Assembly: GCA_039683575.1 (NCBI GenBank)
Contig: JBDKRC010000321.1
Location: 1-12,647, forward strand
DNA: 12,647 nucleotides
Direction of reading: 5' to 3'
Origin: Armatimonadia bacterium
GTDB lineage: Bacteria; Armatimonadota; Zipacnadia; Zipacnadales; UBA11051
The notes beneath the pieces were generated by a model. It ran no database searches. It saw only the letters and a program-made list of their open reading frames with translations, and was not told the origin of the DNA. Numbering within the stretch: the first letter of the stretch is position 1; every line of letters starts with the position of its first letter. Shown one piece after another: positions 4,528 to 8,933 of this stretch. The position numbers and the translations under genes were made by a program.

Positions 4528-7209
4528 TCAGGGGGTGGAGGAGAGGGTGGCGGCGATGCGGGAGGCAGCCCAGCGGCGGAGGTCGGCGTAGCCGGGGCGG
4601 TTGCTGAGGGTGTCGGCGAGTTCGAGCGCCGGGACCGTCTGGCCCTTGGCATAGAGGTCCTTGATGGCGCTAATGACTGCGCTCTCGGACAGTGGTTGCG
4701 TGGTGCACAGGCTCACCATGCGCGGGAGGACCAGCGATGGCGGCGCGCCACCGACCAGGGCGCCGGAGAAGTGCCAAAGGGCCTCTTCCGGGCGCGAGCC
4801 GATTACCGCCGCTTCGGCGGCGACACGGTGGGCCTCGGCGAGGGTGGCCGGGGCGTTCAGGCGCAGGACCTGCTCGCAGAAAAGAGTAGCGTCATTGGCA
4901 AGATTGCAGCCGATGAGGCATTGGGCGCGTTCGAGAAGCCCCGCAGGGGTTGCCTCTGGGAGCGGGAGACGGTCGAGCCAGACGAGGGCCTCGCGGGGGC
5001 GGTCGAGCTTGCGCAACAGGCGGGAAAGTCCGAGGGTGCAAGCGGCACGGCCGTTGGCTGCCCCCGGGGTAGCGGTTGAGGTGTTGAGTTGCCCCTGCAG
5101 GAAGGCCAACCCCTGCTCGGGCTGTTTGGCCGCGATATATAGATCCGCCAGCGCGGAGTAGTATTGCTCAGACTCGGCTGTGGACAGGGCGAGGGCAGTA
5201 ACGGCTGCGGCGACGGCGGGAAGGTTGACAGCGCTTTCGCCCTTCACGATGAGGTCAGCACGTGCCGCCAGAAGCAGGCGATAGGGCTCCGCGCCGAGCG
5301 CCTGTGGGCCCGTCAGGCGCGCGAGAGCGTTGATCAGGTCGCTGTAACGCTGTTCCGCGAGGAGCACCTCACACAGGCCAGTACGCGCGGCCACCGTGTA
5401 TTCGGAGCCTTTGGCGAGGCGCTCGTAGATGGTGACCGCGTCGCGCCAGTTGCCTGCGGCGATGAACTCGCGGGCGGCAGTCATCGCCCACAGGCTCTGC
5501 TGAGGGTTAGTGTCAGTAAGAGCGCCCAGCCTGCGGGCTACGAGTGGCTGGCCGCCTTCCCTGCGGTAGACACTGCAAAGGCCGTCCAGAAGGTCCTGAC
5601 GCTCAGGAGTGGCGCGAAGGAGTTCGAGCAGGAGGCTTCCAGTCTGTGGCAGGCGATCCAACTGCGCGGCGACGTCTGTGAGGGTGTCGAGCGCGGCAGC
5701 GTCATAGTGGCCCTGCCGCAGGGCATTGACCAGGAGATCGTATGCGTCGTGGACGCGATTCTGCGCCAGGTGACAGCGTGCCAGACCGGTGAAGGCCGCC
5801 GCAGGTGGAGGAGTCTGCCCCACGAGCTTGCGGAATGCTGGTTCGGCGCGGTCAGGCTGACGGGCCTGCAGCAGGGCCTGTGCGGCGATAAGGCTGAGGT
5901 CAGGCTGACTGGCCGCGCCCTGCAGAGCGGATAGGGCAAGGCTGGTGGCGAGAGGGGCATCATCCAATTCCGCGGCAAGCATCGCGAGGCGGGCAGCAAG
6001 CGCGGGCTCTTTGCCTGCGTCAGGGGCGATCTCCTGCACCCGCCCCAGAGCCCACTGGCGCGCTCCGAGGCGCAGGGCCAGTTCGCTCTCATCAACCGTG
6101 TACTGCCCCTGGCCCGCGCGCTGCAGTTCGCGCCATTGAATGACGGCGGTGGCGGCGTCTCCGGCGGCGAGGGCTGCCTGGATAAGGCTTTCGCGCGGGG
6201 ACGGCTCCTGTGGCTTAAGCGCGACAAGGCGCGTCAGGTAATCCAGTGCTGTGGCGGTCTGTCCAAGCTTGCTGGCGAGTCCCGCAGCGGAGACTAACAG
6301 GGTCTCAGTCGGCTGCTGAACAGCGAGGACTGACTGATACTCCTGCAGGGCGCCCGCCGGGTCCTCATCTGTCAGCAGAGGGGCGAGCGCGAGACGATAC
6401 GCGGTATTGCGCGGGGCGAGCGTAATGGCCTGCCGGTACGCCGCGATGGCGGCGGGTTTGTTGCCGACGGCGAGGTAGCATTCGGCGACCTGTGCGCGCA
6501 GTGCCGGGTTGCGCGGGTCGGCCTGCTCCGCTGTCTGCAGGTACGGCAGCGCGCGATCAGGCTGTCCGGCCTGCATCTGCAGGGCGATGATCTGCTGCAG
6601 GTCAGCCCCGCTGGGCACCTGGAAGGTGGCGGCGCGCTCGTAGGCACGGGCGGCCTCCGCGTGCAGCTTCATCCCCTCATAGCACCGCCCGAGCAGGATC
6701 CAACCATCGGGGTTTTGAGGCGTGGTCTTCAGGGCCTTCTTCAGGATCAACTCGGCGTCGAGCGGCCGGTCCTGCTGCAGGGCATAGTCGGCGGCTTCGT
6801 TGACCAACTCGATCTTGTTGGGGCGTAGGATCAGGAGTTTGCGATACCAAAATGAGGCGCGCTCATAGTCGGTGGTGGAGGCATAGAGGCGAGCGAGGGC
6901 CGCGACGTACACGGCCTCTTTCGGCCGCACCAGATGAGCGCGGTGGAAGGCGGAAGCAGCAGGCTGGAGATTGCCGCTGCGCTGGTGAGCGAGGCCCAGG
7001 TGGTACAGGAGATTGGCATCTTTGGGGCTGGCAGCGGCCAATGGCGTGAGCAAGCGCACGGCCTCAGCGTACCGGCCCTGCTGCATGAGGTTTTGCGCGC
7101 GGCTGGTTGCAGAGGGCGCAGCCAGCGAGGCCGCGGCGAGAACAGCCGCGATGAGCCCGACTGCGCACCGGATGACCGGCCGGTTATTTCGACTTGTAGA
7201 TCTCGTCAG
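4528..7209 (-). CDS. Large tetratricopeptide-repeat protein with N-terminal signal peptide (~893 aa); start codon uncertain
   Basis: Many TPR-like helix pairs (e.g. '[31 protein letters not shown]', '[25 protein letters not shown]', '[32 protein letters not shown]'). Signal-like segment '[21 protein letters not shown]'. Start proposed at CTG 7209 with GAGG at 7219-7216; alternatives are ATG 7260 and ATG 7086. Stop TGA at 4530-4528. Confidence 0.8.
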
Positions 7210-7567
7210 GATCCACCTCGGGCTCGGAGATGGTCTCCCAGGCCCCGTCGCGCAGTTCATAGAAGAAGCAGCTCCGGCGGCCGGTGTGGCACGCCACACC
7301 AACCTGCTCGATCCCCAGCAGCAGGACGTCCTTGTCGCAGTCGGTGCGGATCCACTTGACCTTCTGCAGGTGCCCCGAGGACTCACCTTTGACCCAGAAC
7401 TTCTGGCGCGAGCGGCTCCAGTAGGTGGCATTACCGGTCTCGACAGTCGCCTGGAAGGATTCAGCATTCATCCAGGCAACCATGAGCACCTCACCAGTCT
7501 CCGCGTCCTGAGCAATAGCGGGGATGAGGCCGTTGTCGTCGAATTTGAGGTCGTCTATGAAGGTCAT
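7184..7567 (-). CDS. hisI: Phosphoribosyl-AMP cyclohydrolase (monofunctional, no HisE domain)
   Basis: Motifs 'GLIPAIAQD...VLMVAWMN', '[17 protein letters not shown]', 'DCDKD', '[10 protein letters not shown]'. RBS GAGGA 7 nt before the ATG. 127 aa. Confidence 0.96.
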
Positions 7568-7581
7568 TGGGCAATCCTCGG

Positions 7582-7623
7582 AGCTTTACAGGATGTACAG
7601 GATAAAGGCAGGATGTACAGGAT
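7582..7623. repeat. Left 42-bp inverted repeat of the GxxExxY cassette (four CAGGAT units)
   Basis: AGCTTTACAGGATGTACAGGATAAAGGCAGGATGTACAGGAT matches the reverse complement of 8069-8110 at 38/42. Contains a 17-bp direct repeat CAGGATGTACAGGATAA (7589-7605 and 7609-7625). Confidence 0.95.
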
Positions 7624-7638
7624 AACGGAAGCGCGGAG

Positions 7639-8019
7639 TTACGAATTGAAGCAGCGCTTGTACTGGAGACGCGGAGTGCCGAAATTGACAAGCAGACCGG
7701 TCTTCAGCCCTGTAGCCTGCAGGTAATTAATGAGTTGCGCCTGATGCTCTGCGAGCAGGCTTGATACAGACTTCAGTTCTACAACAACCTCATCCTCAAC
7801 CAGCATGTCGGCGACGAATTCGCCTACGATGGTACCACGGAACATGACCTTCAACGGCACCTGAGCCTGCGCTCTGAGATGCCGGGAGTTCAGGGCTATG
7901 AGCAGGGAATTCTGGTACACACTCTCAGCAAAGCCGTGGCCGAGCTCGTTGGCTACGTCAAAACAACAGCCCAGTATCCGCCCCGTCAGATCGTCAGAGG
8001 ACAAAGGCTGGCGACTCAC
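7639..8019 (-). CDS. GxxExxY protein (PD-(D/E)xK nuclease superfamily, PDDEXK_3-like)
   Basis: 126 aa with 'ELGHGFAESVYQNSL' (G-F-A-E-S-V-Y = GxxExxY), 'FVADMLVEDEVVVELKSV' (D...ExK), and 'HQAQLINYL...GLLVNFG'. GTG start is uncertain. Lower GC than neighbours (29/60 G+C at 7741-7800). Confidence 0.92.
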   Translation of the reverse strand: MSRQPLSSDDLTGRILGCCFDVANELGHGFAESVYQNSLLIALNSRHLRAQAQVPLKVMFRGTIVGEFVADMLVEDEVVVELKSVSSLLAEHQAQLINYLQATGLKTGLLVNFGTPRLQYKRCFNS

Positions 8020-8068
8020 TCCCAGGAGCTTGGGTATTGGGATCTCCCCCAGTCAATTCTCGTGTCTG

Positions 8069-8110
8069 ATCCTGCAAATCCTGCCTCTATCCTGTACATC
8101 CTGTCAAGCT
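8069..8110. repeat. Right 42-bp inverted repeat of the GxxExxY cassette (four ATCCTG units)
   Basis: ATCCTGCAAATCCTGCCTCTATCCTGTACATCCTGTCAAGCT; its outer end is 2 nt from the hisF stop codon. Confidence 0.95.
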
Positions 8111-8112
8111 GA

Positions 8113-8916
8113 TCACGTCCGTACGACAATACCCCGCGCCGCCAGCTCCTTCTTTACGTCGGCTACCGTTACTTCCCCGAAGTGGAAGATGCTCGCCGCC
8201 AGTACTGCGTCGGCTTTGCCGAGCGTCAGCGCGTCGTACATGTGGTCAATGCTGCCTGCGCCGCCGCTGGCTATTACCGGGATGCTGGCCTTTTCGGAGA
8301 TGCGGCGGAGAAGCTCGAGGTCGTAGCCACCCTTGGTGCCATCTGCATCCATGCTGGTGACCAGAAGCTCGCCTGCGCCGCGTTGTTGGGCTTCCTCGGC
8401 CCACTTGAGGGCATCAATCGTGGTCGGCTCGTGGCCGCCGTGGGTGTAGATGACCCAGTCGATGTCCTCGTCGGGGGCGCAGGGCAGGCAGCTATCGTCG
8501 CGGCCCTCTTTGGGTACGCGGCGGGCGTCTATGGCCACCACGATGCACTGGCTGCCGAAGCGCTCGGCGCCGCGGTTGATGAGGTCCGGGTCCTTGATGG
8601 CAGCGGTCATGATCGAGGTCTTGTCCGCGCCGGCCTTGAGGATCTCGCGGATGTCCTCAACAGTGCGGACGCCGCCGCCGACCGTGAAGGGGATGAAGAC
8701 CTGTTCGGCCACGCGCCGGACGATGTCCAGCATGATATTCCGGGCGTCGAGTGAGGCCGTGATGTCCAGGAAGACCAGTTCATCGGCGCCCTGGCGGTCA
8801 TAGTTGGCAGCCTGCTCGACGGGATCGCCGGCGTCCACGTGGTCAATGTACTTGACGCCCTTGACCACGCGGCCTTTGTTGACGTCGAGACAGGGAATGA
8901 TGCGTTTAGCTAACAT
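8113..8916 (-). CDS. hisF: Imidazole glycerol phosphate synthase cyclase subunit
   Basis: '[18 protein letters not shown]', '[13 protein letters not shown]', 'PFTVGGGVR', '[12 protein letters not shown]', '[20 protein letters not shown]', 'PVIASGGAG', 'LAASIFHF'. ATG 8916 chosen because GGAG at 8926-8923 gives a 6-nt spacing. Confidence 0.97.
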
Positions 8917-8933
8917 AATAAGCTCCAAAAATG

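What the first reader, a model, noticed from the sequence alone, without database searches (positions are those of the whole stretch)
7582..8110. Transposase-free cassette: GxxExxY nuclease-fold gene inside 42-bp inverted repeats, inserted between hisF and hisI
Seen: a 529-bp segment holds one lower-GC GxxExxY gene and is bounded by inverted repeats identical at 38/42. The self-complementary tetramer AGCT occurs at both outer ends (7582-7585 and 8107-8110), so it could be a 4-bp target-site duplication. Deleting the segment and one AGCT gives hisF TGA-TC-AGCT-CC-GAGGA-TTGCCCA-ATG hisI, a normal 20-nt junction with an intact RBS. Known: GxxExxY proteins belong to the PD-(D/E)xK superfamily, are patchily distributed, and have no established function that I know of. 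Inference: this is a minimal selfish element whose small nuclease-fold protein recognises the CAGGAT repeats and spreads the unit into operon junctions without harming the flanking genes, conceptually like RAYT/REP but with a different enzyme.
Basis: partly seen in the sequence, partly recalled or inferred. Interest (0 to 1): 0.85.

Follow-up and report, generated by a model that had tools for sequence, protein, structure and literature searches.

The report
Repeat-boxed GxxExxY nuclease gene cassette
A small nuclease gene wedged between two histidine-synthesis genes is boxed in by inverted runs of the word CAGGAT, and the same gene-plus-repeat package, together with many gene-less copies of the repeat, looks like an undescribed kind of selfish DNA found in many bacterial phyla.

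Summary
Bases 7582-8110 carry one lower-GC GxxExxY (PF13366) gene between 42-nt inverted arms matching at 38 of 42. The cassette sits between hisF and hisI. That junction is empty in 5 relatives.

The proposed AGCT target duplication is not supported. AGCT belongs to the repeat consensus, and two congeners with a cassette upstream of hisI have other arm ends.

Each arm is a phased array of four CAGGAT words. It belongs to a family of about 70-80 dispersed arrays in this genome, which has only one GxxExxY gene.

- Across phyla, 56 of 75 homologous genes have inverted flanks; a reversed control gave 0.
- The word follows the protein clade, and genome-wide abundance of two word types largely tracks their gene clades.
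- A gene-less inverted pair here is orthologous to gene-bearing cassettes in two congeners.
- One solo array is an insertion right after a stop codon.

Best reading: a selfish repeat-bounded cassette whose minimal PD-(D/E)xK nuclease recognises its own word arrays. It resembles REP/RAYT in logic and the 23S rRNA intervening sequence in build. How it moves is unknown.

My searches found no paper on this. Earlier agents of this scan noted the same package in many other genomes.

The parts
7582..8110 (-). Whole cassette: arm, GxxExxY gene, arm. It is inserted in the hisF-hisI spacer.
   Evidence: GC 0.537 against 0.59-0.63 in the neighbours. The hisF-hisI junction is empty in G001, G004, G017, G019 and G021.
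8069..8110 (-). hisF-proximal arm. On the coding strand it reads AGCTTGA then four CAGGAT words (spacing 9, 11, 9 nt). It starts 2 nt after the hisF stop codon.
   Evidence: nhmmer match to the genome-wide family, E 4.1e-07.
7639..8019 (-). GxxExxY protein gene, 126 aa, a minimal PD-(D/E)xK nuclease. Residues G27, G29, E32, D71, E81, K83, H92, Q95 and Y99 are invariant in 30 homologues. The GTG start at 8019 is the first in-frame start and has no well-spaced ribosome-binding site, so the true start is uncertain.
   Evidence: AlphaFold2 model pLDDT 93.4. Restriction-endonuclease-like fold, best Z 8.4. It is the only PF13366 match in the 6.2-Mb genome.
7582..7623 (+). hisI-proximal arm, the inverted copy. 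On the + strand it reads AGCTTTA then four CAGGAT words. It ends 14 nt before the hisI start codon, leaving the GAGGA ribosome-binding site intact.
   Evidence: nhmmer E 7.4e-06.
8113..8928 (-). hisF (His_biosynth), the gene upstream of the cassette on the coding strand.
   Evidence: E 6.5e-83. 87% identical to the G002 orthologue.
7184..7567 (-). hisI (PRA-CH), the gene downstream of the cassette.
   Evidence: E 5e-35. 84% and 81% identical to the G002 and G003 orthologues.

Best explanation
Bases 7582-8110 are one member of a widespread family of small selfish cassettes for which my literature searches found no description. Each cassette holds a roughly 125-aa PD-(D/E)xK nuclease gene (GxxExxY, PF13366) between two inverted arrays of a short word. 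Here the word is CAGGAT, four per arm, about one per helical turn. The cassette was inserted into the hisF-hisI spacer, right after the hisF stop codon and before the hisI ribosome-binding site, so neither gene is damaged. It is probably transcribed by read-through from hisF. I infer that the protein recognises its own word arrays, probably as a multimer on phased sites, and cuts at or near them. I also infer that the many gene-less arrays in the same genome (solo arms and short inverted pairs) are derivatives that are copied or kept through the single gene acting in trans, as REP sequences depend on a single RAYT gene. Shown here: the architecture; the insertion (empty sites exist); its generality across phyla; covariation of word and protein clade; co-occurrence of array abundance with the matching gene clade; a gene-less pair orthologous to gene-bearing cassettes; one solo array that is an insertion; near-identical copies at unlinked loci; an intact catalytic set; purifying selection in one orthologous pair. 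Inferred only: binding, cleavage, the substrate (double-stranded DNA, single-stranded hairpin or RNA) and the copying route. A hydrolytic nuclease cannot itself join DNA, so host repair or recombination would be needed.
For: 1. Architecture.
2. Single gene, many arrays. There is one PF13366 match in the genome. CAGGATNNNCAGGAT occurs 97 times in 82 clusters, and a one-mismatch variant gave 67 hits against 0 in the reversed control. There are 68 arrays of 3 or more AGGAT words at 8-12 nt spacing, against 0-1 for five control words.
3. Insertion. The hisF-hisI junction is empty in 5 of 15 junctions examined, and a cassette lies upstream of hisI in 3.
4. Generality. In relatives, most of the 17 full-length PF13366 loci that could be scored have inverted arms. 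Across phyla, 56 of 75 scorable loci have an inverted-repeat score of 36 or more, against 0 of 75 for the reversed control and 18 of 75 for direct repeats.
5. The word follows the protein. On a 96-row tree the non-CAGGAT words fall in separate supported clades. The AGGAT-array state needs 13 changes, against a mean of 29.4 (minimum 23) in 300 shuffles of 92 rows. One genome, G021, carries cassettes of two clades, each with its own word.
6. Co-occurrence. All 7 of 41 related genomes with 24 or more CAGGAT pattern hits have a PF13366 gene, against 14 of 41 overall. CGAAGA arrays are enriched only in G017, G021, G026 and G031 (39-100 hits against 7-9 in controls), and these four hold GAAGA-clade genes.
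7. Words are kept beyond what pairing needs: arm-to-arm mismatch is 13 of 658 inside words and 200 of 1527 outside.
8. Gene-less derivative. The inverted pair at G000:C115:8396-8480 lies at the site where G002 and G003 carry full cassettes.
9. A solo array is an insertion. The array at C210:18026-18073 adds about 73 nt directly after a TAA stop codon, where G002 and G003 have an empty 25-nt spacer.
10. Copying. 27 of 83 copies have another copy identical at 44 or more of 48 positions; a column-shuffled control gave 0.
11. Enzyme. E32, D71, E81, K83, Q95 and Y99 are invariant and the fold is restriction-endonuclease-like. Between L009 and L012, 52 of 79 differences are at third codon positions.
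12. Position. The upstream neighbour is co-oriented in 48 loci and opposed in 10, while the downstream neighbour is 28 against 29. Solo arrays lie a median 10 nt after the stop codon of a same-strand gene.
Against: No binding, cleavage or transposition has been shown for any family member.

The same kind of repeat box surrounds all 3 genes of an unrelated family (PF05635) in this genome, with other words. It also surrounds the published 23S rRNA intervening sequence. The box may therefore be moved or kept by something other than its cargo.

Co-occurrence is imperfect. G017 and G038 are rich in CAGGAT arrays, yet only genes with other words were found in them (91% and 87% complete). G002 and G003 have two CAGGAT-type cassettes each but only 8 and 15 pattern hits. 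Related genomes are not independent samples.

Most arrays in this genome are single arms, not hairpins: 3 convergent pairs among 68 arrays. That fits a hairpin-based mobile unit poorly.

The gene is kept at the same site in three congeners, and one old insertion is not rejected (AU p 0.835), so it moves rarely if at all.

No target-site duplication was found.

The cross-phylum loci were recovered with peptide patterns from this protein, so they are biased towards its own subfamily.
Confidence: 0.6

Rival explanations
1. An RNA-level element like the intervening sequence of 23S rRNA. In the his operon transcript the two arms pair into a 42-bp stem that RNase III cuts. This separates the hisF and hisI messages and releases the ORF-bearing loop. 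The arrays exist to make the stem. The nuclease is a passenger or has an unrelated role, and spread is by an unknown route.
For: The build matches the published Coxiella intervening sequence: 428 nt, terminal inverted repeats forming a 28-bp stem, tandem GACAGAT heptamers, a small ORF, and excision by RNase III (passages of PMC4990558). PF05635 genes in this genome sit in the same kind of box. The sense RNA is predicted to pair arm to arm (-224.5 kcal/mol, z -3.83). The cassette is co-oriented with its upstream gene in 48 loci against 10. The two arms of one genome are more alike (0.76-0.87) than the arms of different congeners (0.42-0.76), which indicates that pairing or arm-to-arm conversion is maintained. 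RNA-library contigs of one study cover the gene, one arm and part of hisF (weak, because contigs cannot show a transcript).
Against: Arm mismatches show no excess of G-U-compatible changes on the sense strand (117 against 100, p 0.28). The words are conserved far more than the spacers, which a plain stem does not require. The word tracks the protein clade. Most arrays in this genome are single arms that can form no stem. The nuclease keeps its catalytic residues and is under purifying selection.
Confidence: 0.2
2. A domesticated, host-serving pair. The protein binds or processes the arrays for the cell's benefit, for example by trimming or stabilising 3' ends of messages or by organising DNA. 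The arrays are functional sites, not parasites.
For: The gene is kept at the hisF-hisI site in three congeners and is single-copy. Arrays lie a median 10 nt after stop codons, with the purine-rich strand on the message in 47 cases against 19. The published REPIN/RAYT abstracts argue for long vertical persistence of a comparable system (listing only).
Against: The distribution is patchy: 14 of 41 related genomes have the gene. The hisF-hisI site is empty in G001, a genome of the same genus. The cassette has foreign base composition. The protein tree mixes phyla, and the published survey notes multiple transfers (one table row of PMC3424549). Array counts differ about ten-fold within one genus.
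Confidence: 0.12
3. Chance or secondary association. A free GxxExxY gene landed inside a pre-existing palindromic repeat of this genome, and the repeats have nothing to do with the gene.
For: The arms belong to a family that is abundant in this genome, and gene-less inverted pairs exist.
Against: The same CAGGAT-type arms flank homologues in Acidobacteria, Chloroflexi, Geobacter, Chlamydiae, Opitutaceae and proteobacteria. Other protein clades carry other words. G002 and G003 carry armed cassettes although they have few dispersed arrays.
Confidence: 0.02

Closest known systems
Intervening sequences of bacterial 23S rRNA that carry an S23p (PF05635, four-helix-bundle) ORF, for example in Coxiella burnetii (PMC4990558; passages read)
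   Same: Size (428 nt there, 529 nt here). Terminal inverted repeats form a long stem (28 bp there, 42 bp here). The arms contain tandem short words (GACAGAT heptamers there, CAGGAT here). There is one small ORF in the loop and no transposase. Their origin and means of movement are unexplained; the paper cites old proposals that they are transposition remnants or mobile elements. In this genome PF05635 genes also sit outside rRNA in boxes of inverted word arrays.
   Different: The cassette lies in a protein-coding operon spacer, not in helix 25 or 45 of 23S rRNA. The ORF is a PD-(D/E)xK nuclease, not a four-helix bundle. Dispersed gene-less arrays and word-protein covariation are not mentioned in the passages I read. 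RNase III excision is shown there and untested here.
REP/REPIN sequences and their RAYT genes (PMC3116915, PMC3337134; search listing and abstract openings only)
   Same: A single-copy gene is flanked by inverted copies of a short repeat that is dispersed tens to hundreds of times in extragenic space, often after 3' ends of genes. Gene-less copies outnumber the gene. Repeat type and gene type go together.
   Different: The enzyme is a PD-(D/E)xK hydrolase, not a Y1 HUH transposase of the IS200/IS605 kind. The repeat unit is an array of direct words, not a short palindrome. Most copies here are single arms. The gene is often multi-copy in other genomes, with each copy carrying its own word.
Miniature inverted-repeat elements and their parent insertion sequences (general knowledge, recalled)
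   Same: Terminal inverted repeats; gene-less short derivatives of a gene-bearing element; insertion polymorphism between relatives.
   Different: No DDE, serine or tyrosine transposase is present. No target-site duplication was detected. The ends are arrays of 3-4 phased words, not a single terminal site.
Minimal PD-(D/E)xK nucleases with solved structures: a restriction-endonuclease-like protein 3ijm, AF1548 1y88, Cas4 4ic1, lambda exonuclease, Hjc 1gef
   Same: The core fold and the acidic/lysine catalytic set: Z 8.4 (rmsd 3.4, 98 aligned) to 3ijm, 7.3 to Cas4 4ic1, 6.4 to Hjc 1gef. The Q95..Y99 pair after ExK resembles the QxxxY motif of RecB-type nucleases (motif name recalled, not from a call).
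   Different: No sequence match to any solved chain at E up to 1. Z values of 7-8 are in the range the tool calls common, so no functional subfamily can be assigned. The protein has no added DNA-binding, iron-sulphur or helicase domain.

Membership tests
GxxExxY protein (TIGR04256) / PDDEXK_3 (PF13366) | Profile match above the curated cut-off over the whole domain | tested here: met
   PF13366: 135.6 bits against cut-off 22, positions 2-116 of 117. TIGR04256: 138.6 bits against cut-off 35.
GxxExxY protein (TIGR04256) / PDDEXK_3 (PF13366) | GxxExxY motif and the D...ExK catalytic residues | tested here: met
   G29, E32, D71, E81 and K83 are invariant, and Y35 is kept in at least 90% of 30 aligned homologues.
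GxxExxY protein (TIGR04256) / PDDEXK_3 (PF13366) | Restriction-endonuclease-like alpha/beta core | tested here: met
   Model pLDDT 93.4, with secondary-structure elements in the order helix, helix, three strands, helix, two strands. The best structural matches are all PD-(D/E)xK nucleases.
REP/REPIN-RAYT system | Single gene flanked by inverted copies of a repeat that is dispersed in the same genome | tested here: met
REP/REPIN-RAYT system | The gene encodes a Y1 HUH (IS200/IS605-like) transposase | tested here: not met
   The only family matched is PF13366, a PD-(D/E)xK nuclease.
REP/REPIN-RAYT system | The repeat is a short imperfect palindrome, and the mobile unit is an inverted doublet | tested here: not met
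   The unit is an array of 3-4 direct words. Only 3 convergent pairs were found among 68 arrays, and the rest are single arms.
23S rRNA intervening sequence with S23p ORF | Insert of about 0.4-0.7 kb bounded by inverted repeats that form a long stem around a small ORF | tested here: met
   compared with passages of PMC4990558.
23S rRNA intervening sequence with S23p ORF | Located in helix 25 or 45 of the 23S rRNA gene | tested here: not met
   It lies between hisF and hisI. No Rfam match in 7400-8300 at E up to 1.
23S rRNA intervening sequence with S23p ORF | The ORF belongs to PF05635 | tested here: not met
   The ORF is PF13366. PF05635 genes lie elsewhere in the genome.
23S rRNA intervening sequence with S23p ORF | Excised from the transcript by RNase III | not testable with these tools
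   Only contigs of RNA libraries were available, and they cannot show RNA ends.
Insertion sequence or miniature inverted-repeat element | Target-site duplication at the ends | tested here: inconclusive
   AGCT is part of the arm consensus. The congeners' arms end differently. Outer flanks of 31 cross-phylum loci show no shared direct repeat. The filled and empty junctions compared are too diverged (68-72% identity) to fix the exact boundary.

The most novel reading that the evidence does not exclude
GxxExxY cassettes are a new class of bacterial mobile DNA. In it a roughly 125-aa PD-(D/E)xK nuclease, with no transposase, recognises phased word arrays and, together with host repair, copies both itself and far more numerous gene-less arrays into the space just after stop codons. 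The class is present in many phyla. It sometimes sits at gene-order breakpoints, and it is the sister of the 23S rRNA intervening sequences, whose origin has stayed unexplained since they were found.
Probability: 0.35. Interest if true: 0.9.

Novelty: new variant of a known kind. Interest (0 to 1): 0.74.

Why it matters
GxxExxY proteins are a large family with no assigned function. The 2012 PD-(D/E)xK survey lists them as unknown (one table row of PMC3424549), and only three held papers use the name, none about repeats. Tying the family to its own word arrays gives a testable function.

It would also add a second, mechanistically different example of the REP/RAYT type of relationship, in which one gene goes with many short repeats. 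It offers an explanation for the repeat-boxed ORFs of 23S rRNA intervening sequences. In practice, such arrays break assemblies, sit at operon junctions and at synteny breaks, and are currently unannotated.

Tried and rejected
- **AGCT as target-site duplication:** rejected as unsupported.
- **RNA-strand test:** counts of arm mismatches compatible with G-U wobble showed no bias (117 sense against 100 antisense, p 0.28). This covered 68 loci that passed of 92 given. It does not decide between RNA and DNA.
- **Independent insertions at hisF-hisI in three congeners:** suggested by 61-65% protein identity against 81-87% for the neighbours. But the AU test does not reject one clade (p 0.835), so the question stays open.
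- **Homodimer prediction:** no support, no verdict.
- **Rfam scan of 7400-8300 at E up to 1:** no match.
- **Solved structures by sequence:** none at E up to 1.
- **Vectors:** tblastn found the protein in 6 of 72,556 plasmid records, all non-mobilizable and all under 60% identity, and in 0 of 50,697 phage records. No vector was identified.
- **Read laying:** no contig joins hisF to hisI without the cassette in the 4 runs laid. RNA-library contigs of one study start at 7633 and 7641, close to the inner edge of an arm, but these are contigs of a single study and a roughly 94%-identical relative, so they are no evidence of processing.
- **Six-letter word counting of flanks:** it mis-cut many loci because ORFs were over-extended. 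I used the alignment-based arms instead.
- **Literature search with the term PD-(D/E)XK:** not accepted by the tool.

Full report
**1. The observation**

The window carries a his operon on the minus strand: hisD, hisB, hisH, hisA, hisF, then hisI. Between hisF (8113-8928) and hisI (7184-7567) lies a 126-aa ORF at 7639-8019. It matches PF13366 PDDEXK_3 (E 1.3e-39) and TIGR04256 GxxExxY.

The ORF is bracketed by 42-nt inverted arms, 7582-7623 and 8069-8110, complementary at 38 of 42 positions. AGCT stands at both outer ends. The cassette is poorer in G+C than its neighbours: 0.537 against 0.594 and 0.631, with GC3 of 0.654 against 0.81.

Each arm is an array of four CAGGAT words spaced 9, 11 and 9 nt apart. 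And the arm is not unique to this place.

**2. The arm belongs to a dispersed family, but the gene is single**

The genome (6.2 Mb, 352 contigs, 96% complete) has exactly one PF13366 match.

- CAGGATNNNCAGGAT occurs 97 times in 82 clusters. A one-mismatch search for the window's 15-mer gave 67 hits and none for the reversed control.
- A stricter count finds 68 arrays of three or more AGGAT words at 8-12 nt spacing, against 0-1 for five control words.
- The copies share a consensus that includes AGCTT just outside the first word. AGCT is therefore part of the repeat.
- 27 of 83 copies have another copy identical at 44 or more of 48 positions. A column-shuffled control gave none.
- By crude gene calls, 70 of 79 profile hits are intergenic. 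In 47 of these the upstream gene is on the same strand as the purine-rich strand of the array, and in 19 it is on the other. The array starts a median 10 nt after that gene's stop codon.
- Only three neighbouring arrays are convergent pairs, none is divergent, and the rest are single arms. The pairs are the window, C115:8406-8482 and C323:6551-6652.

**3. The cassette is an insertion**

I examined 15 junctions upstream of hisI in relatives.

- hisF is followed directly by a 20-130-nt spacer and hisI in G001 (same genus), G004, G017, G019 and G021.
- Seven junctions have another gene upstream of hisI.
- Three hold a GxxExxY cassette: G000, G002 and G003. In G003 the contig starts at the arm, so hisF itself is not seen.

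The three cassette proteins are only 61-65% identical, while hisI is 81-84% and hisF 87% identical. Their arm ends also differ: AGCTTKA, AACGGNA and GAATTCA. This looked like three separate insertions. However, an AU test does not reject a single clade (p 0.835). One old insertion followed by fast change remains possible.

Either way, the two arms of one genome are more alike (0.76-0.87) than arms of different genomes (0.42-0.76). The arms therefore evolve in concert. No AGCT duplication is seen in the congeners.

**4. Inverted word arrays are a general property of GxxExxY genes**

In 41 related genomes (an order of what are probably Armatimonadota, judging from the titles of the best hits), 14 have the gene. 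Most of the 17 full-length loci that could be scored have inverted arms built of tandem 8-11-nt units. The words differ from gene to gene: NAGGAT, CGAAGA/GAAGA, CACCAAG, CAGAGA and CGGAAAC.

The cross-phylum search returned 80 loci, including Acidobacteria, Chloroflexi, Geobacter, Chlamydiae, Opitutaceae and beta- and gamma-proteobacteria. Of these, 75 had flanks long enough to score; the 5 dropped were L025, L031, L069, L095 and L102. An inverted-repeat score of 36 or more was reached by 56 of 75. The reversed control reached it in 0 of 75 and direct repeats in 18 of 75.

Nearly all arms hold ACAGGAT words. Small clades use CGCAGAT, CACGGAT or CACTGAT instead. These loci were found with peptide patterns from this protein, so they over-represent its own subfamily.

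**5. The word goes with the protein**

- On a tree of 96 proteins the non-CAGGAT words fall in separate supported clades (SH-aLRT 96-99).
- The state "two or more AGGAT in both flanks" needs 13 changes. Shuffled labels gave a mean of 29.4 and a minimum of 23 (300 shuffles, 92 rows).
- Kinship alone could give few changes. But one genome, G021, holds cassettes of two clades, each with its own word.
- Between the two arms, mismatches are 13 of 658 inside AGGAT words and 200 of 1527 outside. This used 40 of the 44 AGGAT-type loci that I picked. The alignment is anchored on the words, which inflates the contrast somewhat.

**6. Array abundance largely tracks the matching gene**

All 7 of the 41 genomes with 24 or more CAGGAT pattern hits have a PF13366 gene. 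Five of them have a CAGGAT-armed gene or a fragment of one.

There are exceptions. In G017 and G038 only genes with other words were found; those genomes are 91% and 87% complete. G002 and G003 have two CAGGAT-type cassettes each but only 8 and 15 pattern hits.

A second word gives an independent test. CGAAGAN{2,5}CGAAGA is enriched only in G017 (62 hits against 8 in the control), G021 (100 against 8), G026 (56 against 9) and G031 (39 against 7). These four hold GAAGA-clade genes. The other 37 genomes have at most 19 hits, with controls of similar size.

**7. Gene-less copies derive from cassettes, and arrays insert**

The gene-less inverted pair at G000:C115:8396-8480 lies between the same two genes that flank full cassettes in G002 (L009) and G003 (L012). 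In G000 the two arms abut where the gene should be.

The solo array at C210:18026-18073 adds about 73 nt directly after a TAA stop codon, in an operon spacer that is 25 nt long and empty in G002 and G003.

I compared four G000 array sites with the congeners. Two are syntenic. At the other two (C323:6542-6680 and C224:22678) the flanking genes lie on different contigs in both G002 and G003, far from contig ends.

**8. The protein**

- G27, G29, E32, D71, E81, K83, H92, A94, Q95, Y99, G108, N112 and F113 are invariant in 30 homologues.
- The AlphaFold2 model is confident (pLDDT 93.4).
- Its nearest solved folds are all PD-(D/E)xK nucleases: 3ijm Z 8.4, AF1548 8.2, the BpuSI nuclease domain 7.9, Cas4 7.3 and Hjc 6.4. 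Z values at this level do not name a subfamily.
- Between the orthologous L009 and L012, 52 of 79 differences are at third codon positions.
- The cassette gene is co-oriented with its upstream neighbour in 48 loci and opposed in 10. The downstream neighbour is 28 against 29 (73 of 75 loci scored). This fits expression by read-through.

**9. DNA or RNA?**

The sense RNA is predicted to pair arm to arm around the ORF (z -3.83). That is the build of the 23S rRNA intervening sequence of Coxiella: 428 nt, a 28-bp stem, tandem GACAGAT heptamers, an S23p ORF, and cutting by RNase III (passages of PMC4990558).

All three PF05635 (S23p-type) genes of this genome also sit outside rRNA between inverted word arrays. 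The words are GGGAATC (score 46), CGGGAAC (score 45) and a weaker third case (score 28). Two unrelated small proteins therefore share one kind of box. This is the main reason for caution about the nuclease being the mover.

The arm mismatches show no sense-strand wobble bias (117 against 100, p 0.28).

**10. Verdict**

The finding is real. The insertion and the REP/RAYT-like logic are supported by comparative evidence. The proposed target duplication is not. Binding, cutting and movement remain inferred.

My literature searches found no description of this package: GxxExxY; PDDEXK_3; PF13366/TIGR04256; REPIN plus RAYT; and two searches on intervening sequences. Supplementary files were not consulted.

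Earlier agents of this scan have noted the same package on other genomes. The index lists 554 notes holding the searched words, and the eight shown describe it. The class is therefore not new to the scan. This window adds:

- cassettes upstream of hisI in three congeners, with arms that evolve in concert;
- an orthologous pair of gene-bearing and gene-less sites;
- a filled-versus-empty solo array;
- two word types that each largely track their own gene clade within one order.

Noticed in passing
G000:C63:35075-35389, G000:C213:9320-9631, G000:C224:12004-12279 (loci L122-L124): All three PF05635 (23S rRNA intervening-sequence protein) genes of this genome lie outside rRNA. They are flanked by inverted arrays of other short words (GGGAATC, CGGGAAC; the third is weaker). 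The C213 copy has an in-frame TGA.
   Followed up: partly
G000:C323:6542-6680 and G000:C224:22678-22728: A gene-less inverted pair and a solo array sit exactly where gene order differs from G002 and G003: the flanking genes are on different contigs there, far from contig ends.
   Followed up: partly
G000:C38:19047-19117: A run of five tandem 9-nt CAGGATATA units followed by further CAGGAT words. This expanded array suggests slippage within arrays.
   Followed up: no
G000:C115:8490-8560: Next to the gene-less CAGGAT pair lies a separate perfect-looking hairpin built on GAGCGAAGCGAAGA and its complement, possibly a second repeat family.
   Followed up: no
G000:C51:8740-8780: A GGGAATC word array, the word that flanks a PF05635 gene, lies just upstream of a CAGGAT array in the same intergenic spacer.
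   Followed up: no
G000:C84:1299-1604: A second hisI-like frame, 52% identical to the window's hisI, lies elsewhere in the genome.
   Followed up: no
window 7184-7467: The long TPR ORF listed as 4528-7467 (-) overlaps the 3' part of hisI in another frame. Its true start is probably further downstream on the minus strand.
   Followed up: no
window 7633-7648: RNA-library contigs of two runs of one study, from a roughly 94%-identical relative, start or end here, between the hisI-proximal arm and the gene's stop codon. DNA contigs run through. This is too weak to call RNA processing.
   Followed up: partly
L022 (G029:C222:2725-2826) and L024 (G003:C299:1176-1283): Short C-terminal fragments of GxxExxY genes (profile positions 80-116) still have ATCCT word arrays on their downstream side. 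They look like decaying cassettes.
   Followed up: no
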